The notes beneath the pieces were generated by a model, which worked only from the letters and a program-made list of their open reading frames with translations, was not told the origin of the DNA and made no database searches. A stretch of DNA of 40,054 nucleotides from a virus. Lineage: Duplodnaviria > Caudoviricetes. This document shows, piece after piece, positions 6,588 through 40,054 of the stretch; the first letter of the stretch is position 1; each line of letters starts with the position of its first letter. The position numbers and the translations under genes are program-made. Location of the stretch: IMG/VR virus record IMGVR_UViG_3300017700_000644, positions 1 to 40,054 of that record; one strand, 5' to 3'.

Positions 6588-6953
6588 ATGAACACCGCCT
6601 TTGACACCAGCGGCGCTGTAGGAGAAATGCCGGGATGGCGCACGCCTGTCCCGTCCTGCAACCGCTTTATGCGTTGGTATGACCTCTCGCCCTTCACGCA
6701 AGGCTATATCGAGGCGTTGTTTTCTAGCAGTGTCGCTCCACACACAATGTGGCCCTGTCGGTTCCAAGACCTCGCCCCGGATACTCTCGCGCGGATCATT
6801 GCGGACTGTGAGGCTCGCGTTGCGGATCGGGGTGTCGCCAACCGTTGCGACGGCGCGTGGTTCTGGAACGGCCGCCAGTCCAAGTCGGTGAAAGGCTTCC
6901 CGCCCCTGACCGTCCAGCTAGGCGACGACGGAAAAGTAAGGTTCGCAGCATGA
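6588..6953 (+). CDS. Hypothetical protein
   Basis: Strong promoter and RBS upstream; LSPFTQGYIEALF motif. Confidence 0.7.
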   Translation: MNTAFDTSGAVGEMPGWRTPVPSCNRFMRWYDLSPFTQGYIEALFSSSVAPHTMWPCRFQDLAPDTLARIIADCEARVADRGVANRCDGAWFWNGRQSKSVKGFPPLTVQLGDDGKVRFAA

Positions 6954-8455: not shown

Positions 8456-9977
8456 CTGTTTCACCGACCAGCGTTGGCGGCTGAACAATCTCTACTGGAT
8501 CACGGACAAGGAGGGTAAGCGCGTCAAGTTCCAGATGAACTGGGCGCAGGCCGAGCTTCTGGACGAACTGCATTACCTCAACATCATCCTGAAGGCCCGT
8601 CAGCTAGGGTTCACGACCTTCATCCAGATTTACATGCTGGATATGGCGGTGTTCTACCCGGACACGCGCTGCGGTGTGATTGCGCATACGCTGGACGATG
8701 CGACGGTGATCTTTCGCGACAAGATCAAGTTCCCGTATGACAATCTGCCTGAGCAGATCAAGGCGGCGAACCCGATCAGGAAGAACAACACGACTGAGTT
8801 GGAGCTATCCAACAACAGCGTGATTCGCGTTGGCACGTCGCTTCGTTCGGGGACGCTTCAGTTCCTGCACATCAGCGAGTTCGGGAAGATATGCGCCAAG
8901 ATGCCTCACAAGGCGCGGGAGATCGTGACGGGCGCGCTCAACACGCTCCAGGCTGGACAGATCGCTTTCATCGAAAGCACAGCGGAGGGCCAAGAGGGCA
9001 AGTTCTACGACATGTGCCAGACGGCGCAGTCCCGTAAGCGTCAGGGCGTGACGGACACCGAGTTAGACTGGCGCTTTCACTTCTATTCGTGGTGGCGAGA
9101 GCCTGCTTATGAAATGGACCCCGGCGATGTCGTGATCACGTCAGCCATGCGGACCTATTTCGACAAGCTGATTGAACAGGGCATACCGCTCAATCCACGC
9201 AAGGAAGCATGGTACGCCAAGAAGGCCGAGGTCCAAGGCGCGGACATGAAGCGGGAGTTCCCATCCACGCCGGAAGAGGCTTTCGAGGCCAGCGTGGAGG
9301 GGGCTTACTACGCGGAGCAGATGGCCAAGGCTGACAGTGAGCAGCGGGTGGGTTCGTTCAAGGCTGTGGAGGGCTATCCGGTTCATGCGGTGCATGACAT
9401 CGGCGTGGGCGACCGTCACGCTATTTGGTTCTTCCAGATACTGCCGGGAGAGGTTCGTCATGTGGGCTTCTGGTCATGCAGTGGCGAGGGGATGCCGTTT
9501 ATCGTCCGCTATATGCGCAAGAAGTTGGAGGACATGGGTTGGGTTATGGGCCGCAACTTCATGCCGCATGATGTGCGGGTGAAAGAGTGGGGGACCGGAC
9601 TGACCCGCATTGAGCAGTTCATCAAGGAGTTCAAGGACACCAAGATGGTCCCCATCGGCAATGTCGATGACGGGATCAACGCGGTGCGTGAGGTCCTGGC
9701 TATCAGCACGTTCGATGAGGAAGAGTGCGCGGACGGCCTGAAATGCCTGCGGAACTATCGCAAGGAGTGGGACGAAGACCTTGGGACGTGGAAGGACAAG
9801 CCTCGCCACGATTGGGCCTCTCACGGTGCGGACGCTGAACGCTATCTGGCGATGAGCTACAAGGAATTGCCGGTGGAGACGATTGAGCCGCCCAAGCCCA
9901 TCCTTGGCGTCAAGGACATGACGTGGGACCAGATGATGAAGCGCCAGCCGGTCAACACGGGGTATGAGCGGGCATAG
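8430..9977 (+). CDS. terL: Terminase large subunit
   Basis: Walker A LKARQLGFTT, Walker B LHISEFG, ESTAEG coupling motif, C-terminal nuclease (DIG...HD..SHGADA). Confidence 0.95.
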   Translation: MAVPAQVLDCFTDQRWRLNNLYWITDKEGKRVKFQMNWAQAELLDELHYLNIILKARQLGFTTFIQIYMLDMAVFYPDTRCGVIAHTLDDATVIFRDKIKFPYDNLPEQIKAANPIRKNNTTELELSNNSVIRVGTSLRSGTLQFLHISEFGKICAKMPHKAREIVTGALNTLQAGQIAFIESTAEGQEGKFYDMCQTAQSRKRQGVTDTELDWRFHFYSWWREPAYEMDPGDVVITSAMRTYFDKLIEQGIPLNPRKEAWYAKKAEVQGADMKREFPSTPEEAFEASVEGAYYAEQMAKADSEQRVGSFKAVEGYPVHAVHDIGVGDRHAIWFFQILPGEVRHVGFWSCSGEGMPFIVRYMRKKLEDMGWVMGRNFMPHDVRVKEWGTGLTRIEQFIKEFKDTKMVPIGNVDDGINAVREVLAISTFDEEECADGLKCLRNYRKEWDEDLGTWKDKPRHDWASHGADAERYLAMSYKELPVETIEPPKPILGVKDMTWDQMMKRQPVNTGYERA

Positions 9978-15288: not shown

Positions 15289-15513
15289 GTGAAGCGAACA
15301 TTAAGCCAGCGTAACTGCCGCAAGAAGGGCCGCTATCCGACTGAAGCGCGCGCCCGCATCCTTGGAGCCTACAAGGCGACATCCGGCGTTCCTCTGTGGC
15401 CCTATGTCTGCCCTGAATGCGGGCATTGGCATCTGACCAAACAACAAGGCAGCACAGCGAAAGAGCCAGCGATCATGCCGGGAAACTCGGGTATCTTTGG
15501 AGCGGCCACATGA
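15289..15513 (+). CDS. Small Zn-ribbon protein
   Basis: CRKKGRY...YVCPECGHWHLT; GGAGGG RBS before the GTG. Confidence 0.65.
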   Translation: MKRTLSQRNCRKKGRYPTEARARILGAYKATSGVPLWPYVCPECGHWHLTKQQGSTAKEPAIMPGNSGIFGAAT

Positions 15514-16940
15514 TCCACGTTGTCAGCGTCCGCGTCGGGACGAAATACGGCCCTGAGTACGTCGAACGCCTTCATGACGGCATTGCCCGCCATCTGGACG
15601 AGGAACAACGCCATTGGTGCCTGACGGACGATCCTGACAGCCTTCCCGAAGGCATCGCGGCCATTCCGCACAATCCCGATCTGCCGGGTTGGTGGCAGAA
15701 GGTGTTTCTGTTCTCGCCTGATATGCCGTGGCGGGGCGGCGACAAGATTCTGTATATGGACCTAGACGTATGCGTGACGGGACGGCTTGAGGAGCTTCCG
15801 CTAGGCATCATCAAGGACTGGCATTGGCCGACATATAACAGCAGCGTCATGCATTGGATGCACGGCCAACACGCGGCGATATGGGACCGGTTCGGACCCG
15901 AGATAATCGACCGTCCAACTGACATTCTGCATGGCCTCTTGCCTGCCGGTCAGGTCAACGGCGGGGACCAGGAATGGATCAGCCATGTAAGCGCATGGGA
16001 GCCATTTCCGGCTGAATGGTTCGTCTCCTACCGCAGCGCCGTTGCATGGCCTCCTGATACGTCAAAAGCGGTCGTGTTCCACGGCGAGCCCAAGCCCCAT
16101 GACGTGACGGAGGGATGGGTTCCGGGCGTGTGGAGGGTCGGCGGCTTCACGGCCATGCCAGAACTTAAGGGAATGAACGTCTCCCATGAGTTCGCCTACA
16201 ACAACGTCCGCGCCAATGTCCTGCGGGATGTTCCGTGGTTCTCGGGCTTCGGAGAGCAGGACAAGCCGTGCGTCATCGTCGGCGGCGGTCCCTCGCTTTC
16301 GGACAGTGTGCGGGCAATCCGCGACTGGAAACGCAAGGGCGCGAAGATCATCACCGTGAACAACGCCTTGCGGTTTCTCATGGCGAAGGGGATCAGGCCT
16401 GACGCCCATGTGATGTTGGATGCGCGGGAAGAAAACCTGTCTATGGTCGAGGATGCGCCTAAAGATGTGCGCTACTTCATCGCTTCTCAGGTTCATCCGT
16501 GCGTGTTTGACGCTCTTTCGGGGCATGATGTTGTTCTGTGGCACAACGGCATGGGTTCGGGGGACGAACTGAGGGAGATAATCGACCCGTGGTTTGATGA
16601 AGGGCCGAACCAGAGGCCGTGCGTCTTTGTTCCTGGTGGCGGGACCGTGGGGCTCAGGGCCATCAATCTGGCTTGGCTGTCGGGGTACAGGAAGATTCAC
16701 CTGTATGGGTTCGACAGTTCGTATTCAGAGGGTCAACATCACGCCTATCCGCAGGGCCTGAACGACGGCGAGGCCACCATGTTGGTGACGATAGCCGGAA
16801 AGACCTACACTTGCGCCCGGTGGATGATCAGGCAGGCGATGGAGTTCCAGCAGCAGTTTTTGTATCTGCGGGACCACGGCGTTAAGGTGGTGGCTCACGG
16901 TAAGGGATTGATACCGGATATGGGGAGACTGTTGCGGTGA
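15510..16940 (+). CDS. Two-domain glycosyltransferase: N-terminal GT-A plus C-terminal Maf/DUF115 (MptE-like, sialyltransferase-like) domain
   Basis: GTKYGPEYVERL, GWWQKV.LF, YMDLDV (DxD), NSSVM, GDQEWI, VFHGEPKP; then CVIVGGGPSL, PDAHVMLD, GGTVGLRAINLA..SGYRKIHLYGFDS. Confidence 0.82.
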   Translation: MIHVVSVRVGTKYGPEYVERLHDGIARHLDEEQRHWCLTDDPDSLPEGIAAIPHNPDLPGWWQKVFLFSPDMPWRGGDKILYMDLDVCVTGRLEELPLGIIKDWHWPTYNSSVMHWMHGQHAAIWDRFGPEIIDRPTDILHGLLPAGQVNGGDQEWISHVSAWEPFPAEWFVSYRSAVAWPPDTSKAVVFHGEPKPHDVTEGWVPGVWRVGGFTAMPELKGMNVSHEFAYNNVRANVLRDVPWFSGFGEQDKPCVIVGGGPSLSDSVRAIRDWKRKGAKIITVNNALRFLMAKGIRPDAHVMLDAREENLSMVEDAPKDVRYFIASQVHPCVFDALSGHDVVLWHNGMGSGDELREIIDPWFDEGPNQRPCVFVPGGGTVGLRAINLAWLSGYRKIHLYGFDSSYSEGQHHAYPQGLNDGEATMLVTIAGKTYTCARWMIRQAMEFQQQFLYLRDHGVKVVAHGKGLIPDMGRLLR

Positions 16941-17521
16941 GGGCTTTTGACGGGCTTTGGTGGCCTGACGCGGACGTTAGGGCTAGGCCAGCAATAGTCG
17001 CACAGTGCGCGGAAGCCCTTCCCCTTGTTCTTCCGCTGGTCGAGGAAAAACGGGTCTGCGTTCAGGCGGGCGGCAATGTCGGCGTTTACCCGATGGCGCT
17101 TGCGGCGTTTTTTGACCGCGTGATTACCTTTGAGCCAGACGCGGAAAACCTTGCTTGTCTTTCCAAGAACGCGACTCAAGGATCAATCGCCATATTCAAG
17201 GCCGCGCTTGGAGCGACGGCGGGGACGTGTTCGGTTCAGGTAGTTGAACCCGATAACTGCGGGGCGCACAAGACGGTTCCGAGTGGTCCCATTCCTGTGA
17301 TGACGATTGATGGCCTGTCGCTGGATCAGTGCGATTTGATCTGGTTGGACATTGAGGGGGCCGAAGCTGATGCGATTGAGGGCGCGAGGGCGACAATTGC
17401 AAGGTTCTCGCCTATCATCGTGTTGGAAGAAAAGGGGTTGGGGTCTGTCGCTGATCTGCCGGGTTATCAGCGGGTCACACGCATTGGAAACGACACTGTT
17501 TACATGAGGAGCCCATCATGA
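16937..17521 (+). CDS. FkbM-family SAM-dependent methyltransferase
   Basis: VQAGGNVGVY, TFEPD, LIWLDIEGAE. Confidence 0.88.
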   Translation: MRAFDGLWWPDADVRARPAIVAQCAEALPLVLPLVEEKRVCVQAGGNVGVYPMALAAFFDRVITFEPDAENLACLSKNATQGSIAIFKAALGATAGTCSVQVVEPDNCGAHKTVPSGPIPVMTIDGLSLDQCDLIWLDIEGAEADAIEGARATIARFSPIIVLEEKGLGSVADLPGYQRVTRIGNDTVYMRSPS

Positions 17522-21044: not shown

Positions 21045-21512
21045 ATGCGCTTGATCAGCGGTCCCTTCTCTCCGCTAGTCGCTCAATGGGTTGCAGACCA
21101 GATCGGGCATGGTCTGGATTGGGGGCCGTGCGAGGCAATCGGGGTCGTGGACAAGAACGATACGCTCATTGGCGGCGTGGTTTTTAACTCGTATCAACCT
21201 CAGTACCGGAACATAGAGGTAAGTTTTGCCGCGATCCGGCCCAACTGGTTGACGCCTAACCTAGTGACGGGCATACTCAGCTACGCTTTCGACCAGCTCG
21301 ACTGCCAGCGGATCACCAGCCTAACGCCCAAGAAACTGCGTCGGGCTCGCCAGTTCCTCCAAAAGTTTGGGTTCAAACACGAGGGGACTGTGCGACGTGG
21401 TTACGGTGATGACGACTGTATCATATCCGGCCTTCTCAAAAGCGAATGGCAAAACCATCGCTTCAATAAAGGCCGCGTAGATGTCGAAACCGAAGCCCCC
21501 CGCAGCACCTGA
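21045..21512 (+). CDS. GNAT-fold protein (P22 gp14 / T7 gp13-like position)
   Basis: YAFDQLDCQRIT...FLQKFGFKHEGTVR GNAT signature. Confidence 0.8.
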   Translation: MRLISGPFSPLVAQWVADQIGHGLDWGPCEAIGVVDKNDTLIGGVVFNSYQPQYRNIEVSFAAIRPNWLTPNLVTGILSYAFDQLDCQRITSLTPKKLRRARQFLQKFGFKHEGTVRRGYGDDDCIISGLLKSEWQNHRFNKGRVDVETEAPRST

Positions 21513-30892: not shown

Positions 30893-31122
30893 TGAGTCCG
30901 CTTGCCGCTATCGACGCCCTGCTAGACCCGATCATCGTCAGCGCGAACAAGGTCCGAGAGGTTCGGGACTCCCTGCCTGTCGTCGCTTGGCAGATTGTCC
31001 CGCTTCCGATTCGTGGGCCGCTAGACGCTCTATTCGCCGCCGTGGAGGCTTATGACCGCAAGATAGGCTTGCTGAAGGCTGCGGGCCTGATCGGTGACGA
31101 TGTAGGGACTGACGCTCCCTAG
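30892..31122 (+). CDS. Hypothetical protein after the endolysin
   Basis: TGATG coupling; no lipobox seen. Confidence 0.55.
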   Translation: MSPLAAIDALLDPIIVSANKVREVRDSLPVVAWQIVPLPIRGPLDALFAAVEAYDRKIGLLKAAGLIGDDVGTDAP

Positions 31123-31202
31123 CGGTCCTTATCCATCAGGATGGAAATCTGGCACCCTATAACAAGGATCAGAAACACGGCTAGAGATACGAGGAAGATC
31201 AT
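31119..31202 (-). CDS. Single-TM micropeptide (27 aa, not in ORF track)
   Basis: ATGA overlap; MIFLVSLAVFLILVIGCQISILMDKDR; stop overlaps the convergent gene stop in CTAG. Confidence 0.45.
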   Translation of the reverse strand: MIFLVSLAVFLILVIGCQISILMDKDR

Positions 31203-31498
31203 TCAGACCCCCCTACAATAGGAAGAGCTGCTCTGGCGATGTCCGCCGCTTCAAGTCTGGCGGCTCGGGCGCCCTTGTCGAAGTCATCACCCCCAACGAC
31301 GGACAGCGAAGCCAGATCGGCAATCTCCTCCAGTGCCCCTTCAGCAGCACGAAGGCGGCGGGACAGGTCTTCGAGCATGTCGGCGGCGTCTTCCTTCAGC
31401 ACGTTGTCGCAGTTGGCGCACCCGCCGTGATGGGGCGACGACGTGTCTTCGCGAAGCCGGGCACACAGCCTTTCCAGTTCTCCAAGGTCAGCGGTCAT
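31199..31498 (-). CDS. Hypothetical protein
   Basis: MTADLGELERL...ALEEIA...ARAAL phage-typical pattern; GGGAG RBS. Confidence 0.6.
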   Translation of the reverse strand: MTADLGELERLCARLREDTSSPHHGGCANCDNVLKEDAADMLEDLSRRLRAAEGALEEIADLASLSVVGGDDFDKGARAARLEAADIARAALPIVGGSE

Positions 31499-31679
31499 GG
31501 GTTTCACTCCCGCTCGCTGCGGCGAGAGTTTCGACGCATCGGCTCCAATGCCGCCGTGCTTCCCGCCGAGCGGCCTCGGACGCGCTCTGGTCATGGGTGC
31601 GCTGCCAGTGATCGCGTTCCACCAGCAACTCTGCGCGCGTCATCTGAGCGAAGGGCTTGTTCGTCGGTTCGCCCATCAC
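31488..31679 (-). CDS. Hypothetical protein
   Basis: GGAGGGGAG RBS; coupled to the upstream stop. Confidence 0.5.
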   Translation of the reverse strand: MMGEPTNKPFAQMTRAELLVERDHWQRTHDQSASEAARREARRHWSRCVETLAAASGSETHDR

Positions 31680-32218
31680 TCCCCTCCTTCACTATTAGCC
31701 GTAGTGTTTTGTGCAGTCGCTTCGCTCCTACCCACCGCATCAGCTTCAGCGGCTGTTCTGGCCTTCAAAATGGCGATGCAGAGGGCCAGCGGAGCGGTGT
31801 TTCCCGTCGCGGCCTCCTGCCCTCCAGCAGGGCCGAACGTGGCCCAATAGGGCGCGTACACGGCCTCCAGCGGCGGCAGACGATGAACGCGCCAGTACCC
31901 GCCCGGCAGAACACGATCAGCCAAAGCCAGAGCGGCGTCTATGCTTTGGGTCAGGCGCGGCGGATCGCGGTAAATGCTGGTTCCGTGGAGGCCATCCAGT
32001 TTCGGAGAGCCGTCACCGTTGAGGCCGATGAAGTCTTCTGGTGCGATCCAGCCGCCCGCGCTCCCTCGCATATGGCGGGGCTCAACGCGATGCCAGCAGA
32101 AGTGACGGGCCAGCAGACCGTCAATCTCCCGACTGCCCACGGAAGCAGCCTCCAGCCGTGCAACAATCTCGGTGGGGATCGGCGTCTTCGCCGATGAACC
32201 CTGATGATCCTGGCTCAT
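31676..32218 (-). CDS. Phage ABA-sandwich-like protein
   Basis: RLEAASVGSREIDGLL...P.LTQSIDAALALA..VLPG...TAPLALCIAILKA. Confidence 0.7.
   Translation of the reverse strand: MSQDHQGSSAKTPIPTEIVARLEAASVGSREIDGLLARHFCWHRVEPRHMRGSAGGWIAPEDFIGLNGDGSPKLDGLHGTSIYRDPPRLTQSIDAALALADRVLPGGYWRVHRLPPLEAVYAPYWATFGPAGGQEAATGNTAPLALCIAILKARTAAEADAVGRSEATAQNTTANSEGGE
31711..31735 (-). repeat. Hairpin element copy A: GTGGGTAG-GA-GCGAAGC-GA-CTGCAC
   Basis: Read directly; member of the 7-copy family. Confidence 0.8.
32172..32199 (+). repeat. Hairpin element copy E: GTGGGGAT-CGGCG-TCTT-CGCCG-ATGAAC
   Basis: Read directly. Confidence 0.8.
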
Positions 32219-32397
32219 GACCGCTCTCCAGACTGAAGGGAAAGGATGGTGTTGACGGCCACATCGAGCGAGACCATGCGATTACGATAGGCGATCAACG
32301 CCAGTTCCAGCTTCGCCCGGTCTACTGGCTCTGGGGCGGGATGGGCTTGGTTCACGTCGCTACGCGCCGTACCCACTGAGTTTGCAGTGCTAGTCAT
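32215..32397 (-). CDS. Hypothetical protein (N-terminus encoded by hairpin element B)
   Basis: GGAGG RBS before ATG at 32397. Confidence 0.5.
   Translation of the reverse strand: MTSTANSVGTARSDVNQAHPAPEPVDRAKLELALIAYRNRMVSLDVAVNTILSLQSGERS
32350..32376 (-). repeat. Hairpin element copy B: GTGGGTAC-GGC-GCGTAGC-GAC-GTGAAC
   Basis: Read directly. Confidence 0.8.
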
Positions 32398-32725
32398 GCT
32401 GCCTCCGGTGTCTGGCATTTTCTTCGATCTCGATACGAAGGCGCTTCATGGTCTGGCGGTCGCGGGCGTCTCGGGCATCGCGACCAAAGCCCCACGCCCA
32501 AGCGTTCTGCCGGTCCATCTTCTGCCGGTAGTCGCGCGACCACGCCTTTTTCGCGTAGGCCAAGGCGTCGTCGGCCCACTCAAGGCGGGTGACGTTTTGC
32601 TTGATCCAGAGCAGATAGGCCGGGTCAAACTTCGCCACCGACTCGACGGTGAGCCCCTGGTACTTGCCGAACGTGAGCGGCGTGGTCAGACCGAGGGCCG
32701 GGGCTCGTTCTGTGGTGGTGTTCAT
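32390..32725 (-). CDS. DUF3820 / ExoX C-terminal-like domain protein
   Basis: LTFGKYQGLTVESV...DPAYLLWI motif. Confidence 0.65.
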   Translation of the reverse strand: MNTTTERAPALGLTTPLTFGKYQGLTVESVAKFDPAYLLWIKQNVTRLEWADDALAYAKKAWSRDYRQKMDRQNAWAWGFGRDARDARDRQTMKRLRIEIEENARHRRQHD

Positions 32726-33165
32726 CAGCTTGTCCATCCGGGGCGCTCCACTTCCTTGCGGGCATCAGTGATGCAGGCGGCGCAGACGCGACCCGCGAAG
32801 CCAACCCGCTGCGTCTCCACGTCGGACGCTTCGCAACGGCTGCACAGCCGCGTGGCCGCTTCTAGCGCCTGTTCGTCGAAGAACGGCGGCACGTCCACGG
32901 CGAGGCCGTCAGGCCCCCACACGTAGATCATGGCGGTGGCCCCTCCCCTCTCATGGGGTCGGGCGAGCGTCTGAGCGGTCCAGCCGCGCGGACCATGCAG
33001 GCGCATCGCCCGGTCTTCGCTTTCGCTCTCGCCGTAGGTCGGCTCATGCGTCCAGCCCGCCGCGATGGCATCGGCTCGCCACTGACGGACGCCAGCCAGC
33101 GCAGCCTCGGATTCGATCGCGCTCCTGAAACCGTGTTCACCTTTCGGAGTATAAGGCTCGCCCAT
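32725..33165 (-). CDS. Hypothetical protein with C-terminal Zn finger
   Basis: CSRC...VGFAGRVCAAC. Confidence 0.65.
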   Translation of the reverse strand: MGEPYTPKGEHGFRSAIESEAALAGVRQWRADAIAAGWTHEPTYGESESEDRAMRLHGPRGWTAQTLARPHERGGATAMIYVWGPDGLAVDVPPFFDEQALEAATRLCSRCEASDVETQRVGFAGRVCAACITDARKEVERPGWTS

Positions 33166-33336
33166 CTATTTGCTCCCAGCGGGGGTGGCGGGGGTGGCTC
33201 TGCTGGCCAGCATCCGAAGCATGTCGGCGCATTCCCGGAGGGTTTCACGGCGTCCCGGTTTCGGTGCGGCCTCCATTTCGGCCATCGTTTCCCATGTTTC
33301 AGCCACCTCAAGGGCCAGCGCCTCGGAGATACCCAT
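33166..33336 (-). CDS. Hypothetical protein
   Basis: GGAGG RBS; TGATG coupling; [12 protein letters not shown]. Confidence 0.55.
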
Positions 33337-33734
33337 CAGTCGTTTCCTCCGAGCATGTGCCGCACCATTTCGGTTGCCTGCGTGTGATCGAGCAGGTTTG
33401 TCCCGCTCGGCCAGTGCTGTGGGTGCAGCCGTTCCTTGTCGAAGTGGACCCCGCCATCTGGATTGAAGTTCGCGGGCAGACGCCACGTCAGGAAACGATC
33501 AACCATCCGGGCGAGAACAGCCCCCTCCGCGTCTCCGGTGGGGACGGACGGCGAAGCCGGGAGTGCGCTAAAACCATCATCAGGGACTGCTGAGAGGGCG
33601 CGGAGGATGGCGGTCGCGCAAGAGTTCAGGCCAGCGACGCGGGCAAGCGATGGGCTGTGCTTCGACATGACGTAGGTGTGCTTTTCGATCAGGTCAGCGA
33701 CCATTTCGATTTGCTCGGGCGTTGGATCGCTCAT
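33336..33734 (-). CDS. Hypothetical chimeric protein (two segments joined at hairpin element D)
   Basis: C-terminal [19 protein letters not shown]...PSGTNLL motif follows the element. Confidence 0.65.
33538..33568 (+). repeat. Hairpin element copy D: GTGGGGAC-GGA-CGGCGAAGCCG-GGA-GTGCGC
   Basis: Read directly. Confidence 0.7.
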
Positions 33735-34267
33735 CGTCCCGCCCCTTCCGCAGGAGGAGTGGGAAGGACGCGGTAGGCGATGATGTCTTCTTCCCAGTCG
33801 CTGTTCGGCGCGAACCATGCCCACGCGTAGGTTTCCGACCATCCCTCGTTTTCAGTGTCGTCTCTCAGTCGGACGCGAACCTCCTTCCCTGGAACCGGAT
33901 TCTCCCCGCCAGCCCACTCGATCCAGTCCGTCTCCACCTGTTCAGCGGGACTGACGGGGGCTTGGTGGGCGAGGGCGTTGGCCAACTGGATCGAGAGCCA
34001 GCGGATGCGGTCCTTCGCAGCGGTCTGGAATACGATCAGGTCGAGGCTGTTGCGGTCCGCCATGAACTGCGCGTTCGCAAGCTCGAAGTCCGTCATGTGG
34101 CCCATGCCAAGCTCAGTGCGATCCTGATGGCCGTAGCGAGCCACAAACCTCGTCCACGCGTCCTCATCGACACAATGACCGGCAGGCCGTTCAGCTACAG
34201 CAGCCGCATCCTGACCCTCGGTAGGTAGGAGCGCGTCTTGCGCGACTGCACCCTGATCTTCAGGCAT
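33731..34267 (-). CDS. Hypothetical modular protein (C-terminal WIEWAGGENPV...DIIAYRV domain)
   Basis: AAAGGAG RBS before ATG at 34267; a common phage C-terminal domain. Confidence 0.7.
   Translation of the reverse strand: MPEDQGAVAQDALLPTEGQDAAAVAERPAGHCVDEDAWTRFVARYGHQDRTELGMGHMTDFELANAQFMADRNSLDLIVFQTAAKDRIRWLSIQLANALAHQAPVSPAEQVETDWIEWAGGENPVPGKEVRVRLRDDTENEGWSETYAWAWFAPNSDWEEDIIAYRVLPTPPAEGAGR
34221..34251 (+). repeat. Hairpin element copy F: GTAGGTAG-GA-GCGCG-TCT-TGCGC-GA-CTGCAC
   Basis: Read directly; outer arms almost identical to copy A. Confidence 0.8.
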
Positions 34268-34311
34268 GGCGAACTCCTTTTCTACCTGTAGGGCGGTGAG
34301 AGACGGGCTGG

Positions 34312-34461
34312 TCATGACCACGCCCCGAAAAGGCAGATCGCGCCCAAGCCGTTGAGCAGATACCGGCCCACCCGCGCATGGCCCTCGCTGACCGAGGAAG
34401 TAACCAGCGGCGACACCGCGAGCAGCAGGGTGCCGACAGCAGCAAGAATGACGTTCGCCAT
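34312..34461 (-). CDS. Small two-TM membrane protein (49 aa, not in ORF track)
   Basis: TGATG and ATGA coupling; MANVILAAVGTLLLAVSPLV...YLLNGLGAICLFGAWS. Confidence 0.5.
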   Translation of the reverse strand: MANVILAAVGTLLLAVSPLVTSSVSEGHARVGRYLLNGLGAICLFGAWS

Positions 34462-34934
34462 CACGCAGCCCCCAGCTTGTCGGATAGGGGGTCAGGGTTC
34501 ACGGCTTCCGCCGTACCCACCGAGCTTGCAGCGGTAGCCTTGATGCCGCCGTGGTCGATCACGGCCTGCGCGACGATCTCAAGCGGAACGTAGCCGTAGA
34601 CCGTCTCGGTGGGGTCAACGTCAGAACCGTCGATGTAGGGCATGAACGCCTCGACCTTGGCGCTCGGAAAGCCCACCTCGACCTCGTACCATCCGCCGTG
34701 GCTCTCGCGCGGCGAGCAGTAGTGGAAGCGGCTGGCCTGCACCGACATGCTGAACCCGTCAGCGCAGCGAACCGTCTCGGCGTGCTTCAGGTGACCCGGC
34801 GAGATCGCCTCGATCTTGGGGTCAGCGGGTCGGGTTTTCGGGTCGAGGATTGCCCGAAGGTGAGCGACGGTAGCCGCAACATCACCGGCCGGTATGGAGG
34901 CTGCGTCAGCAGCCGTAATGCACCCATCACTCAT
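34461..34934 (-). CDS. Conserved hypothetical phage protein
   Basis: CADGFSMSVQASRFHYCSPR...EVEVGFPS...TVYGYVP...HGGI motif. Confidence 0.8.
   Translation of the reverse strand: MSDGCITAADAASIPAGDVAATVAHLRAILDPKTRPADPKIEAISPGHLKHAETVRCADGFSMSVQASRFHYCSPRESHGGWYEVEVGFPSAKVEAFMPYIDGSDVDPTETVYGYVPLEIVAQAVIDHGGIKATAASSVGTAEAVNPDPLSDKLGAA
34497..34520 (-). repeat. Hairpin element copy C: GTGGGTAC-GGC-GGAA-GCC-GTGAAC
   Basis: Read directly. Confidence 0.8.
34888..34923 (+). repeat. Hairpin element copy G: GCCGGTAT-GGA-GGCTGC-GTCA-GCAGCC-GTA-ATGCAC
   Basis: Read directly; divergent 5' arm. Confidence 0.65.
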
Positions 34935-34980
34935 GGCTAAATCTCCATTTCCAGTTGTCCGTCTATTGGTGCTGCTGCTC

Positions 34981-35163
34981 TCACGACATAACCCACAGAG
35001 ACAAAGCTACAGCCGGAACAGCCACAGCAATAAACAGAACCATCCAGACAGGTGTTTCAGAACGGGGCTTGGCGGGCTCAAAACTCCAACCCTTTCCGCC
35101 TCCCTGGTTCGTCCGTTGGGCTGCGATGTATGTTGCGCTTGCGGAAGTGAAGGGGTCAGCCAT
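34981..35163 (-). CDS. Small membrane protein
   Basis: C-terminal TM helix. Confidence 0.5.
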   Translation of the reverse strand: MADPFTSASATYIAAQRTNQGGGKGWSFEPAKPRSETPVWMVLFIAVAVPAVALSLWVMS

Positions 35164-35302
35164 TGGCGATAGCCTCGGCTAACTTAATGGTCCACGCGTT
35201 GATCCGGCTGACGCGGATTTCCACAACAGGATCATCACCCGCCGATTCCATGAACGCTTCCATAGCGTCAATGACTTCCTCGATGTTTTCAGGGTCAATC
35301 AT
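35156..35302 (-). CDS. Hypothetical protein
   Basis: AGGGAG RBS; MIDPENIEEV... Confidence 0.5.
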   Translation of the reverse strand: MIDPENIEEVIDAMEAFMESAGDDPVVEIRVSRINAWTIKLAEAIANG

Positions 35303-35450
35303 CGGCCTTCGTCTCCCTATTGTTAGAAGCAGCGAAGGCCCATTCATGGAGCTTGTCCGCCATGTTGTTCTTGAGTTCCGTCTGTATGCGCTCAAGGTCT
35401 GAGCCTCGGCGTGGACGGACGGCGATAATCGGGGTTCGCTTCTGGTTCAT
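35295..35450 (-). CDS. Small putative DNA-binding protein (51 aa, not in ORF track)
   Basis: ATGA overlap; MNQKRTPIIAVRPRRGSDLERIQTEL gives a beta-then-helix, RHH-like pattern. Confidence 0.45.
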   Translation of the reverse strand: MNQKRTPIIAVRPRRGSDLERIQTELKNNMADKLHEWAFAASNNRETKADD

Positions 35451-35689
35451 GCGCCCCACGCCAGAACGCGGTCACCGAAGCGGTTCAGGGGGCTAAAGTC
35501 GCGCTGCGTAGCCCGTTCGGCCAGCGTTTCGCGGTAAGCCTTCTTGGCCTCCGAGGCGCGGGCGTAGAAAGCGCCATCAGCGCCAACGCCGTGATTGACG
35601 ACGTAACCGCCATCGACGCGGGCAATGCTGCCACGGTTCATGCCGAACCCGCCGTTGCGGAACTCGAAGGCGGCGATCTGTTTACGCAT
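35447..35689 (-). CDS. Hypothetical protein
   Basis: Own promoter and AAGGGAG RBS. Confidence 0.65.
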   Translation of the reverse strand: MRKQIAAFEFRNGGFGMNRGSIARVDGGYVVNHGVGADGAFYARASEAKKAYRETLAERATQRDFSPLNRFGDRVLAWGA

Positions 35690-35745
35690 GGCGTTTCTCC
35701 CTTTTGTTAGGTCAACCATACTCCCCTAAACGCATTGGTCAACCA
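35690..35745 (-). promoter_or_regulatory. Sigma70-type promoter with direct-repeat operator and RBS
   Basis: TTGACC(35742-35737)-N16-TATGGT(35720-35715); TGGTTGACC occurs twice; AAAAGGGAG. Confidence 0.65.
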
Positions 35746-35796
35746 CTTTCTTTGCCTCTTTCTTCCCGGTCTTCTGTCTAATGGTGGAGGGGTTTT

Positions 35797-36063
35797 TTAG
35801 TCAGCGGGCCACCAAAAGCCGCGCCCTTTCTGGATGATCCTTCCGGCACGTCGTTCTGCCTGTAGAACCTGGTCAGCCATCCTGTCCGCGTCCGTTGCGC
35901 GGCCCTTCAGTTCAGGGCAAAAGCCCTCGGCTGCCCTTCGCGCCACGCCAGACAGGTGCCTGTAGGTCATGGGGAAGGGGCCTTCCTCCAGAGCGACCAT
36001 CACGGCGTTTTTGGCTACGCGCCGCTGATCCTCGTTCAGTTTGGTAATCAAAGGAAACCTCAT
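35797..36063 (-). CDS. Hypothetical protein (winged-helix-like)
   Basis: GGGAG RBS; ADQVLQAERRAGRIIQKGRGFW. Confidence 0.55.
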   Translation of the reverse strand: MRFPLITKLNEDQRRVAKNAVMVALEEGPFPMTYRHLSGVARRAAEGFCPELKGRATDADRMADQVLQAERRAGRIIQKGRGFWWPAD

Positions 36064-36147
36064 CGTCTCTCTCCCATTCTCATATCCTGGACCTTTTGAA
36101 AGGTATTGGATTCATTTCGCTGCGCGAAATACCCACCGTGGACGAGG

Positions 36148-36552
36148 CTAATAGCCCGGATCATCCCTTGGCAGGTCGTTCCAAAAGCGGGCACATTCAG
36201 CCTTGTAATCCAGCGCGGTCGCGTCGCTCTGCATCAGGTAGGCCGACTCCTCCGCGTCAGTCATCTTCGCAGGCCACGGCTCTGGGTAGACCATCGGAAA
36301 TAGCCTAACCGCCGTCAACATACAGGCGGGGCATCTGTTAGAGGCTTCACGCAGACCGGCCATGCCGTTGGCCCTCATGGCGTCGTGCATCACTGGAACG
36401 GGCGTCACGCACTCGCCTAGCTGGTCGCACATACGACAGGATCGGTCTGGGTTCTTCGTGCAGTGCTTTTCGTGGCTTTCCATGTGGAAGCGCGACCCGC
36501 CAGCCTTTTTGCAGTGGTCGCAATAATAGCGCCTAACTGTCCGCTCTCTCAT
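36148..36552 (-). CDS. Cys-rich Zn-binding hypothetical protein
   Basis: YYCDHCKK...HEKHCTKNPDRSCRMC...CPAC. Confidence 0.75.
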   Translation of the reverse strand: MRERTVRRYYCDHCKKAGGSRFHMESHEKHCTKNPDRSCRMCDQLGECVTPVPVMHDAMRANGMAGLREASNRCPACMLTAVRLFPMVYPEPWPAKMTDAEESAYLMQSDATALDYKAECARFWNDLPRDDPGY

Positions 36553-36606
36553 TTTCGTCTCTCCCGTTTCGTTTCGCCGCGACCAAATTTGAAAGGGTCG
36601 GGCTGG

Positions 36607-39036: not shown

Positions 39037-39224
39037 CCGATGAGCCGAAGTTCAATCGGCTGGCCTGACGGAACATGATCGCCCCGCTGAAACGCAGCCG
39101 CCAAAGCCCGAACAAACAGCCTGTCCCTTTCCCGTTGAGACGCTTCCTCATCTAATGGTGAGCGCCAGTCTTTCGGAGCGTCCTTTGGGGTTGAGACGCG
39201 AGGCTTCCAATAGTGATGGGTCAT
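39033..39224 (-). CDS. Hypothetical protein
   Basis: ATGA-coupled at both ends. Confidence 0.55.
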   Translation of the reverse strand: MTHHYWKPRVSTPKDAPKDWRSPLDEEASQRERDRLFVRALAAAFQRGDHVPSGQPIELRLIG

Positions 39225-39553
39225 GATCCTGCTTCCTCTATCAGTCGGTTGAGGATTGCGGTTCGGCCAGGTTCGGGGATGGCGTAGCCTTGACGTTCAT
39301 GCGTAACGATAAGATCGGGACCGATTCCCACGTCCTCCAACTTGGAACGCAGAAGACAGATGCGGACCTTGATCGCGTTCCGGCTCGGCAAGTCGCCCTC
39401 TACCATGCGCCATTTCCGCGCCCGCCCGAGAACATCATAGCTCGCCACTCGCCCGCGAACGTCCAGCAAGGCGCAGAGTAGGGCCGATTCCATGCGGGAG
39501 CCTAGAAGCGTAAAGGCGACAACCTCTAGTCCTAGCCGCTCCAGCGGGTTCAC
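39221..39553 (-). CDS. Stand-alone OmpR/PhoB-type winged-helix protein (CtrA DNA-binding-domain-like)
   Basis: ESALLCALL...GRVASYDVL...IKVRICLLRSKL...IVTHERQGYAI; no receiver domain. Confidence 0.75.
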   Translation of the reverse strand: MNPLERLGLEVVAFTLLGSRMESALLCALLDVRGRVASYDVLGRARKWRMVEGDLPSRNAIKVRICLLRSKLEDVGIGPDLIVTHERQGYAIPEPGRTAILNRLIEEAGS

Positions 39554-40054
39554 GCGCGCCTCTTTTGGCGGTCAAGGTCATGGCAGAGCGCGTAATGGCT
39601 CTCGCACTGATTCGTGTCATTCCAGACGGGCAAGCAGCACGAATGAATCTCACCACGCGGGCCGTATGGGTAGGAACACTCGCCTCGTTCGCGCGTCAGC
39701 CAAGGACGGGCGGTCAACGGAATGACGTTGGAATCCTCTTTCGGTCCTGCCTTCGGTCGCGGCTTCATCGTAGTGCCTGCTCTGGCCTTCGCTGCGGCGG
39801 CTACGGTATCATACGTCCGATCAGCCGCTTTCCGAACCTTCGGGACGCCCTTGGGAGGCAGACCCATGCGCTTGGCCTTGGAACCGACCTGACCTTCGCT
39901 GCGTCCGATCTGTTGACCGATAAGGAAGCAGGACAGACCGGAGGGCCAAAGCCGCTTCAATTCCGCTTCCTCGTCCTCGCTCCAGGTCTTCAGATTGACG
40001 GGCTGAACGGGGCTAAGGCTTCCAATGTCGTACTTGCGACGGACGCGGGCAACC
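39550..40054 (-). CDS. gcrA: 3' part of the GcrA-like regulator (HTH plus Cys-rich C-terminal domain)
   Basis: WSEDEEAELKRLWPSGLSCFLIGQQIGRSEGQVGSKAKRMGL matches the GcrA N-domain; WLTRERGECSYPYG...CC.P......CESH matches the GcrA C-domain. Confidence 0.8.
   Translation of the reverse strand, partial: VARVRRKYDIGSLSPVQPVNLKTWSEDEEAELKRLWPSGLSCFLIGQQIGRSEGQVGSKAKRMGLPPKGVPKVRKAADRTYDTVAAAAKARAGTTMKPRPKAGPKEDSNVIPLTARPWLTRERGECSYPYGPRGEIHSCCLPVWNDTNQCESHYALCHDLDRQKRRA
39932..40054. repeat. Terminal direct repeat (123 bp), right copy
   Basis: Identical to positions 1-123. Confidence 0.95.

What the first reader, a model, noticed from the sequence alone, without database searches (positions are those of the whole stretch)
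31711..34923. Family of covarying hairpin elements bracketing accessory genes: candidate undescribed gene-cassette system
SEEN: seven 24-36 nt elements occur in a 3.2-kb stretch of the accessory arm, and I found none elsewhere by eye. The consensus is 5'-(ctcg)GTRGGKA-N-[stem-loop]-N'-TGMRC. Copies are A 31711-35(-), E 32172-99(+), B 32350-76(-), D 33538-68(+), F 34221-51(+), C 34497-520(-) and G 34888-923(+). N and N' are complementary in all 7 (G:C twice, C:G three times, T:A twice). Inner stems differ in sequence and length yet always pair. Orientation mostly alternates, so inverted pairs (E/A, G/C) enclose a single gene. Several copies carry GCGAAGC or GCGTAGC mini-hairpins, tandem GA/GA pairs and GGA/GGA or GGA/GTA internal loops. 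KNOWN: these motifs are unusually stable in single-stranded DNA. Folded ssDNA sites with conserved ends and variable cores are used by integron integrases (attC) and by HUH enzymes (RAYT on GTAG/GTGG-led REPs, IS200/IS605 TnpA). Alternating inverted sites flank mobile pdif modules. INFERENCE: these are strand-specific recombination or nicking sites that let small genes be swapped as cassettes. No cognate recombinase is visible in this genome, so the enzyme would be host-supplied, or the phage's own ERF/HNH machinery would be used.
Basis: partly seen in the sequence, partly recalled or inferred. Interest (0 to 1): 0.85.

Follow-up and report, generated by a model that had tools for sequence, protein, structure and literature searches.

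The report
Hairpin joints that shuffle phage genes
Brevundimonas-type phages carry a family of short folded-DNA repeats, not found in our literature searches, that are joined at one fixed base to the ends of many unrelated accessory genes, often as inward-facing pairs around one gene, and are likely the handles by which an unidentified single-strand cut-and-join enzyme attaches and swaps those genes.

Summary
Observation confirmed. All seven copies are at the stated coordinates. Six fit the strict motif (shuffles: mean 0.39, max 2), and an eighth copy (36110-36136) and a truncated relic were missed. The window is a complete 40 kb Brevundimonas-type phage. About 250 distinct copies were collected from related phages and prophages; the few hits in 151 Brevundimonas genomes lie almost all in prophage-like regions. 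Stems covary, and loops are of the DNA mini-hairpin type on one strand. Sense copies sit at gene 3' ends and antisense copies at 5' ends, so inward pairs enclose one domain (25/54 vs 9/63), including an Acb3 anti-CBASS gene. New here: a box 17 or 25-27 nt upstream of the hairpin is joined to unrelated gene ends at one base (RRC|NA, mostly C|TA), like the C|T cuts of the REP enzyme RAYT. Against: no cognate enzyme in the phages or linked in hosts; the GTAG tag is not conserved; breakpoint excess over ordinary gene ends is modest; no excision or inversion seen. It is not a REP, attC, pdif, PeSL or known ssi. The scan had not noted this family before, though it noted analogous hairpin pairs in other genomes.

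The parts
31711..31735 (-). Copy A: sense-type hairpin element in the C-terminal tail of the ABA-sandwich ORF
31752..31761 (-). Upstream box of A (10/10), 26 nt 5' of the motif; inferred junction after C at 31761
32172..32199 (+). Copy E: antisense-type element in the N-terminal tail of the ABA-sandwich ORF; box weak (8/10 at 32150)
31676..32218 (-). Cargo ORF of the E/A inward pair: phage ABA-sandwich-like protein; homologues occur with and without element-coded tails
   Evidence: Pfam PF18066 hit on a homologue
32350..32376 (-). Copy B: sense-type element right after the stop of ORF 32390-32737
32384..32393 (-). Upstream box of B (10/10), 17 nt form; inferred junction after C at 32393
32690..32717 (-). 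Truncated relic: box, spacer and left end only, hairpin lost; forms the N-tail of the ExoX-like ORF 32390-32737
33512..33521 (+). Upstream box of D (10/10), 26 nt form
33538..33568 (+). Copy D: antisense-type element at a domain junction inside ORF 33336-33734
34195..34204 (+). Upstream box of F (10/10), 26 nt form
34221..34251 (+). Copy F: antisense-type element in the N-tail of the ORF ending at 33731
34497..34520 (-). Copy C: sense-type element in the C-tail of ORF 34461-34934
34528..34537 (-). Upstream box of C (10/10), 17 nt form; inferred junction after C at 34537
34461..34934 (-). Cargo ORF of the G/C inward pair; its core has element-free relatives in distant phages (Curvibacter, Acinetobacter, Vibrio, Pseudomonas)
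34888..34923 (+). Copy G: antisense-type element with variant left end; box weak (8/10)
34965..35002 (-). Possible decayed sense-type copy (doubtful, E 0.2)
36110..36136 (-).

Best explanation
These are copies of a 45-65 nt phage DNA element (box, spacer, CNCG-NY-RGGKA-Y, hairpin, R-TG-M-AC) that is joined at one fixed base to the ends of many unrelated accessory genes; the stems covary and are predicted to fold best on one strand, and the joins are likely made by an unidentified, probably host-supplied, RAYT/HUH-like enzyme that would bind the hairpin in single-stranded DNA, nick at C|N in the box and join the element-carrying strand to a new RRC end. SHOWN: the anatomy, covariation, orientation relative to genes, the sharp junction and the mosaic flanks. 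INFERRED: each join is one-ended and replaces a natural gene end (no empty allele keeps both flanks; no target duplication seen at the one pair checked by eye, E/A); a gene that gains an antisense copy at its start and a sense copy at its end becomes an inward-flanked cassette; spacers, hairpins and outer linkers are then reshuffled between co-infecting phages by crossovers anywhere in the shared 50-60 nt, probably helped by the phages' own annealases (ERF in this genome; Rad52 or RecT in relatives). UNTESTED: the enzyme, single-strand folding in vivo, and transfer of whole cassettes.
For: Fixed junction: selected on the spacer alone, 30 short-form copies carry the box at -17 (C at position 0 in 28/30, A at position 2 in 29/30), and upstream of it lie many different gene ends. 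123 distinct junctions have 122 distinct 12-nt upstream contexts, with purines at -1 (81%) and -2 (88%) (distinct strings are not all independent genes). In 10 element-free alleles identity runs through position 0 in 9/10 and position 1 in 1/10 (6/7 and 1/7 without three rows from one doubtful box). E. coli TnpA-REP cuts C|T 5' or 3' of the REP at variable distance; quoted sites are GACC|TACA and GGCC|TACA; it recombines strands in vitro and is proposed to sequester flanking genes (PMC3333891 passages; PMC8266576 passages). The commonest boxes begin CTAC, the inverted GTAG end. Two spacing classes (17 and 25-27 nt) share one box, so the box seems read by sequence, not measured by distance. Covariation: a pattern that allowed any Y..R pair gave 87 of 89 matches with T-A or C-G, 2 with T-G and 0 with C-A (my count of the rows); 89% of cells paired and 36 two-sided changes in 29 aligned copies, 0/500 shuffles. 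DNA-type loops: C-GAA-G 40, C-GTCA-G 10 and C-GCA-G 9 of 121; GCGNAGC mini-hairpins are described for DNA in PMC13037366. The top strand folds lower than the bottom in 147/180. Polarity: antisense at 5' ends 35 and sense at 3' ends 34, against 10 and 7 the other way, with 33 outside called genes. Inward pairs of 250-500 nt: 25/54 vs 9/63, p=2e-4; orientation alternates in 95/117 neighbours. 63 pairs of copies share one flank only and 1 shares both.
Against: No enzyme: no protein family is shared by all 22 element-bearing genomes by BLAST or own HMMs (best: an HNH-like family in 16/22 vs 11/14). No Y1_Tnp in 50 phage records and no HUH or recombinase among 101 cargo proteins. Y1_Tnp occurs in only 13 of 276 Brevundimonas genomes, not in G314 whose prophage has 7 copies, and those genes are flanked by other repeats. 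The GT of GTAG/GTGG is replaced by CT, CC, AT or AC in a minority of copies. Guide-to-cut-site covariation is weak (GTAG with CT 21/30 vs GTGG with CT 49/100, p=0.06) or absent, and about 45% of boxes have C|G or C|C, not C|T. Only 133 of 253 copies keep a box at >=9/10. Homology breaks at elements 50/60 vs 346/478 at element-free gene ends (p=0.087); a nearer test gives 48/60 vs 268/478 (p=4e-4); pairs are not independent. Truncated relics break at several positions. No shared core was found flanked at both ends in two different phages.
Confidence: 0.45

Rival explanations
1. Single-strand initiation (priming) signal. A host primase or primosome would recognise the folded top strand and start a primer at the conserved R-T-G just 3' of the hairpin, or at the box, copying into the gene. 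An inward pair would then be a self-amplifying gene-sized amplicon that recombines into other phages.
For: Layout parallels RSF1010 ssiA/ssiB (six specific 5' nt, hairpin with a CCGAAGG loop, GTG start 3' of it, inverted pair; PMC8567376 and PMC13037366 passages) and the G4 origin (GCGAAAGC hairpin with CTG 3' of it). R-T-G is conserved at 97/93/91% when the right end is not required. Bearers have unrelated replication and virion modules, so a universal host factor fits. It would explain inward polarity directly.
Against: R2 finds nothing in the G4 and alpha3 genomes and only a chance-level hit (E 1.1) in phiX174. No phage primase is shared. Sense and antisense copies are about equal (81 vs 72), so there is no lagging-strand bias. 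It does not by itself explain the single-base junction with foreign gene ends.
Confidence: 0.2
2. No dedicated enzyme. The hairpins are nuclease-resistant caps at the 3' end of each strand of a cassette and shared 50-60 nt homology anchors, which phage annealases use for ordinary relaxed-homology recombination, as with PeSL cassettes.
For: ERF in the window and Rad52 or RecT in relatives. Spacers, hairpins and linkers are mosaic, with crossovers spread through the element: of 221 linker-sharing pairs 72 share the hairpin and 63 the spacer; of 21 core-sharing pairs 2 and 7. No cognate enzyme found. PeSL-mediated shuffling is described in T4-type phages (PMC2839356 abstract).
Against: Homologous recombination cannot attach the element to new, unrelated gene ends, least of all at one base in more than 100 contexts. 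Sequence-specific conservation of both ends in unpaired positions suggests protein recognition. It probably accounts for the secondary shuffling, not for the joins.
Confidence: 0.17
3. Cutting by another nuclease or recombinase: a host Ssn-type GIY-YIG single-strand nuclease, a phage HNH nickase, a type IA topoisomerase or a tyrosine recombinase acting on the folded strand.
For: Ssn binds a hairpin repeat as ssDNA and cuts a few bases upstream (PMC11893778 passages); all 5 host genomes tested have GIY-YIG genes. N.phiGamma nicks YCG|GT (PMC4027164 abstract in listing), which matches CTCG-GT in 101/180 copies. An HNH-like gene is the most widespread family in these phages.
Against: The 8 host GIY-YIG loci examined carry other hairpins or none. 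The observed junction is 17-27 nt from CG|GT. An integrase family is in only 7 of 22 bearers, and the window has none.
Confidence: 0.13
4. RNA-level or coding feature (terminator, antiterminator, processing site, or conserved peptide linker).
For: Copies lie in transcribed early operons and often keep one reading frame (VGT in sense, IPTE in antisense).
Against: Both orientations are equally common, so half would present the less stable strand in mRNA. Loops are GNA triloops, not GNRA/UUCG. No Rfam hit; no promoter or terminator call overlaps a copy. Copies also lie after stop codons and in several frames.
Confidence: 0.05

Closest known systems
REP/BIME repeats with RAYT (TnpA-REP, Y1 HUH)
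   Same: 20-40 nt strand-specific hairpin with a GT(A/G)G-like 5' foot and purine-rich internal loop; alternating orientation; join at a C|T-type site 5' of the hairpin at variable distance, in a CTAC context (PMC3333891, PMC8266576 passages).
   Different: Confined to phage accessory genes and mostly inside ORFs; not repeated on host chromosomes; GT not invariant; extra conserved 3' end R-TG-M-AC; no linked Y1 gene.
PeSL cassettes of T4-type phages (Arbiol et al. 2010, PMC2839356, abstract read)
   Same: Repeated stem-loop motifs among nonessential phage genes at which modules are shuffled.
   Different: PeSLs are promoter-terminator units; these copies have no promoter or terminator call, lie in coding tails, come as inverted pairs and show a fixed single-base junction.
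ssiA/ssiB of RSF1010 and G4-type complementary-strand origins
   Same: Specific 5' sequence, GNA/GNNA mini-hairpin, NTG just 3' of the stem; ssiA/ssiB form an inverted pair of about 40 nt.
   Different: No model match to G4 or alpha3 and a chance-level one to phiX174; many copies per genome at gene ends; no RepB'-like primase seen.
IS91-family ends (oriIS/terIS)
   Same: The words CTCG (terIS cleavage site) and GTTC/GTGC (targets) both occur at the ends of the core motif (PMC13181058 passages).
   Different: Here the two words are on opposite strands of one copy, the observed junction is at neither, and no IS91 transposase family appeared in the Pfam scans.
Integron attC sites and pdif modules (definitions recalled, not read here)
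   Same: attC: folded single strand with conserved ends and variable core. pdif: alternating inverted sites around single genes.
   Different: The order of the GT and AAC ends is the reverse of attC, and cassettes lie between inverted, not direct, copies; no 28-bp XerC/XerD site with two 11-bp arms and a 6-bp centre.

Membership tests
REP/BIME (RAYT-associated) | Hairpin-forming palindrome active on one strand | tested here: met
   Covariation and strand asymmetry of predicted folding; activity itself untested
REP/BIME (RAYT-associated) | Conserved GTAG (GTRG) tetranucleotide at the 5' foot | tested here: inconclusive
   GTGG/GTAG in most copies, but CT, CC, AT and AC variants keep the rest intact
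REP/BIME (RAYT-associated) | High copy number in extragenic host chromosome | tested here: not met
   1 of 401 Caulobacteraceae genomes with the strict pattern; 8 of 151 Brevundimonas genomes with R2, at most 7 hits each, nearly all in prophage-like regions (only 43 candidates scored per genome); 1 of 151 alphaproteobacterial genomes
REP/BIME (RAYT-associated) | A Y1 HUH gene flanked by the same repeat | tested here: not met
   0 of 50 phage records; 13 of 276 host genomes have Y1_Tnp, flanked by other repeats
REP/BIME (RAYT-associated) | Cleavage and strand transfer at C|T near the hairpin | not testable with these tools
   The junction maps to C|N, with T in 54%; cleavage needs a bench assay
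Integron attC | RYYYAAC ... GTTRRRY order, direct repeats, IntI nearby (recalled definition) | tested here: not met
   GT-end first and AAC-end last on both strands, inverted pairs; no integrase in the window
pdif module | 28-bp XerC/XerD site with two 11-bp arms and a 6-bp centre (recalled definition) | tested here: not met
   Inner length varies from 11 to 26 nt and forms a hairpin
PeSL cassette | Sigma70-like promoter plus terminator stem-loop | tested here: not met
   No promoter- or terminator-like site overlaps a copy in 31000-36600
ssi / primosome assembly site | Sequence-structure match to known origins | tested here: not met
   R2: no hit in G4 or alpha3, one chance-level hit (E 1.1) in phiX174; RSF1010 record not in the collection
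ssi / primosome assembly site | Directs primer synthesis on ssDNA | not testable with these tools
   Needs a priming assay
MITE / TIR-flanked insertion cassette | Empty site with both flanks contiguous; target duplication | tested here: not met
   No empty allele found among 253 copies; element-free alleles share only the gene side
IS91-family end | Ori and ter tetranucleotides on the same strand, with a Y2 transposase | tested here: not met
   Opposite strands within a copy; no such family in Pfam scans
Ssn-associated repeat (SRM/NTS) | Repeat flanks a small GIY-YIG gene | tested here: not met
   8 host GIY-YIG loci carry other hairpins or none; no R2 hit

The most novel reading that the evidence does not exclude
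An undescribed gene-capture system of phages: a short ssDNA element that carries no enzyme borrows a host single-strand nick-and-join (or priming) activity to graft itself onto both ends of foreign genes, including anti-defence genes such as Acb3 and Lar. This turns them into interchangeable in-frame modules shared across unrelated virion types of one host genus, an integron-like outcome reached by different chemistry.
Probability: 0.3. Interest if true: 0.9.

Novelty: new variant of a known kind. Interest (0 to 1): 0.72.

Why it matters
How phages acquire and swap small accessory and anti-defence genes precisely at gene and domain boundaries is a long-standing question, usually put down to random illegitimate recombination plus selection. 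Here more than 100 junctions fall on one base of a conserved box next to a covarying DNA hairpin, across podo- and sipho-type phages of one host genus. That gives a defined 60-nt substrate and a predicted cut site, so the enzyme can be fished for directly. If confirmed, it is a sequence-programmed route to phage mosaicism and domain fusion.

Tried and rejected
Rfam: no match. Host REP: the loose pattern in 5 genomes was at control level; strict pattern 1/401. The first loose viral scan gave mostly chance hits. Cultured phage and plasmid collections gave only chance-level DNA hits and no tblastn hit for two cargo proteins, so no cultured carrier was found. Covariance model R1 was built with a structure string out of register, which exposed; searches used it. 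It was rebuilt as R2 and the genus and window searches were repeated; the order-level search was not repeated. Lists of new copies taken from R1 hits were checked by eye. The mutual-information test is circular at the first pair because the finder required it, so searches are cited instead. My first split into bearers and non-bearers was too strict: several 'non-bearer' proviruses hold variant copies, which weakens the gene-association contrast but not the absence of a shared enzyme. No box-to-left-end pairing or spacer hairpin covariation; no guide/cut-site covariation. Sequencing runs: one DNA run holds the stretch and may be its source; no RNA holder listed. Its contigs show no excision or inversion of this genome, and the two joints listed come from short contigs that run on into other genes, i.e. 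other phages with mosaic copies (contigs drop rare variants). A Chi-like role (recalled Caulobacter motif) was considered and dropped untested because the left end varies. Rows dropped before counts: 4 chance hits, 9, and 31 of 211. Literature searches with no paper on this element: (0 papers); the listings showed none. PMC6006769 passages gave nothing relevant. Supplements were not read.

Full report
CONTEXT. The window is a complete 40,054 bp phage record with direct terminal repeats. It has a podovirus-like virion module, an ERF annealase, three HNH genes, a lambda-O-like initiator, GcrA- and response-regulator-like genes, and no integrase or HUH hit. Homologues of the gene between E and A are named from Brevundimonas, and related loci are Brevundimonas prophages and 20-70 kb viral contigs. 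The finding lies in the leftward early operon of small genes.

OBSERVATION. The seven copies are real and as described. The strict motif occurs 6 times, all in 31711-34520, against a shuffle mean of 0.39 (max 2 of 100); G has a variant left end. There is no Rfam match.

THE FAMILY. Protein-led and pattern-led scans and whole records gave 128 copies against 19 in reversed controls over 1.8 Mb, and 253 distinct copies after relaxing the left end. Carriers have P22-like, SU10-like, HK97-like and other virion genes and several replication modules. The consensus is C-N-C-G-N-Y-R-G-G-K-A-Y, an 11-26 nt symmetric inner part, then R-T-G-M-A-C-C. The right end is conserved at 89-97% per position when not required (176 copies, 17 in control). 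With a pattern that allowed any Y..R, 87 of 89 matches are T-A or C-G (my count). In 29 aligned copies 89% of cells pair, 36 change on both sides, and 0/500 shuffles reach this (the tool warns that relatedness alone can do so). Loops are mostly C-GNA-G and C-GTCA-G, internal loops GGA/GGA, GA/GA and variants, the DNA mini-hairpin type of PMC13037366 (passages). The motif strand folds lower than its complement in 147 of 180. In hosts the element is not a chromosomal repeat: 1 of 401 family genomes with a strict pattern, 8 of 151 genus genomes with model R2 (six in prophage-like accessory regions, one of these six with an extra hit of unclear context on a second contig, one a chance hit), and 1 of 151 class genomes. 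Only 43 candidates per genome were scored, so weak copies can be missed.

PLACEMENT. Only 2 of 155 copies lie in genes over 1300 nt, which cover 28% of the bases. With my own gene calls, antisense copies sit at 5' ends (35) and sense copies at 3' ends (34); 10 and 7 are the other way, most of them at domain junctions of fusion proteins or just after an upstream stop; 33 fall outside called genes. Neighbours alternate in 95 of 117 cases, and pairs whose left motifs face inward enclose 250-500 nt in 25 of 54 cases against 9 of 63 for other pairs (p=2e-4). Cargo includes ABA-sandwich, DUF6197, DUF551, DUF4326, Lar, dATP/dGTP pyrophosphohydrolase, a DNA methylase and an Acb3 CBASS inhibitor that fills an inward pair. 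The same domains occur without elements in other phages.

THE JUNCTION. A box C-[TCG]-A-[CG]-[AC]-A-C-[ATC]-G-C lies 17 or 25-27 nt 5' of the motif, on the gene side, in both orientations; 133 of 253 copies keep it at 9/10 or better. Copies chosen by spacer alone carry it at the fixed distance, and the sequence just upstream belongs to many different genes. 123 distinct junctions have 122 distinct upstream 12-mers, purine-rich at -1 and -2. In the 10 element-free alleles that stay homologous up to the junction, identity includes position 0 in 9 and position 1 in 1 (6/7 and 1/7 without one doubtful query). The join is therefore RRC|NA, with T after the bar in 54%. This is a small sample. No allele keeps both flanks without the element, so joins look one-ended.

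SHUFFLING. Among 124 copies, 63 pairs share one flank only and one pair shares both. Hairpins travel more with the outer linker (72 of 221 pairs) than with the gene (2 of 21), and spacers are mosaics, so later crossovers are spread through the element. Homology breaks at 50 of 60 element comparisons against 49-57% at random accessory points. Element-free gene ends, however, break at 346 of 478 (p=0.087), or 268 of 478 against 48 of 60 in a nearer test (p=4e-4). The excess is modest and the pairs are not independent. No core was seen flanked at both ends in two phages. The one run holding this DNA shows no excision or inversion; it holds other phages with recombined copies, one combining the hairpin of H with the linker of C.

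ENZYME. None was found. No family is common to all 22 carriers. Y1_Tnp is in 0 of 50 phage records and 13 of 276 host genomes, with different flanking repeats. Host GIY-YIG genes carry other hairpins. One host Y1 gene (L478) is flanked by repeats that contain both end words of the element without the inner hairpin; this is a lead only.

MECHANISM. E. coli TnpA-REP binds a single-stranded REP, cuts C|T on either side at variable distance (sites GACC|TACA and GGCC|TACA are quoted), exchanges strands and is proposed to sequester genes (PMC3333891 passages; PMC8266576 passages). The phage element has the form of the piece such a cut would release: the remainder of an inverted GTAG end, a linker, then a GTRG-footed hairpin. 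I therefore favour a RAYT/HUH-like nick-and-join at the box (0.45). The enzyme, the nick and folding in vivo are inferred. Rivals are an ssi-like priming signal (0.2; layout as ssiA/ssiB, PMC8567376 passages), annealase-only shuffling of protected fragments (0.17; probably true for the secondary mosaicism), another nuclease or recombinase (0.13) and an RNA or peptide role (0.05).

KNOWN FAMILIES. It may work like REP/RAYT and has the outcome described for PeSLs (PMC2839356, abstract and outline). It fails tested features of REP, attC, pdif, PeSL, MITE, IS91 ends, Ssn repeats and known ssi sequences (see the membership table; attC and pdif definitions are recalled). Three targeted literature searches returned no paper, and the library lacks most subscription journals. 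The scan's own notes held nothing on this genome or look-alike DNA but list analogous strand-specific hairpin pairs around genes in other genomes, unchecked here.

VERDICT. A real, apparently undescribed family of phage DNA hairpin elements with cassette-like placement and a single-base junction. Interest 0.72; new variant of a known kind, with a 0.3 chance of being a new gene-capture system.

Noticed in passing
L419:76-1023: An Acb3 CBASS-inhibitor gene (Pfam PF25187, E 2e-71) lies exactly between an antisense and a sense copy.
   Followed up: partly
L478:1097-1215 and 1927-1953; L470:1348, 2176: Brevundimonas Y1 (RAYT-like) genes flanked by inverted repeats containing GTAGGGAC and GCACC, the two end words of the phage element, but without the inner hairpin.
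   Followed up: partly
L433, L471-L476: A second group of Brevundimonas Y1 genes is flanked by GCGGACCTYCAGGTCCGC palindromes, usually preceded by GGAGC rather than GTAG.
   Followed up: no
L459:1258-1830; L460:1805-1890: Small host GIY-YIG genes flanked by hairpins, some CGTCA-led, as expected for Ssn-type repeats.
   Followed up: no
window 6588-6953: Element-free allele of a gene that carries a sense copy at its 3' end in G418.
   Followed up: partly
window 15417-17521 and 21045-21512: Glycosyltransferase/MptE-like, FkbM methyltransferase and GNAT genes inside the virion module, shared with five related phages (FkbM with four); possibly virion or surface modification.
   Followed up: no
window 39221-39960: Phage-borne GcrA-like and Trans_reg_C (response-regulator-like) genes, i.e. 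cell-cycle regulator homologues.
   Followed up: no
window 34505-34541 and 32127-32171 (run X1): The same sample holds contigs at about 9,400-9,800 depth (window 601) that share the ABA gene and element parts: a much more abundant related phage co-occurs.
   Followed up: partly
L422 about 5000; L018 about 8781; G417:39027: Decay by deletion: inner hairpin removed cleanly, right half lost, or left motif deleted between CGG repeats.
   Followed up: partly
L468 (G004 contig 2, 39907-39940): A variant copy on the second contig of a complete Brevundimonas genome; whether plasmid or phage was not determined.
   Followed up: no
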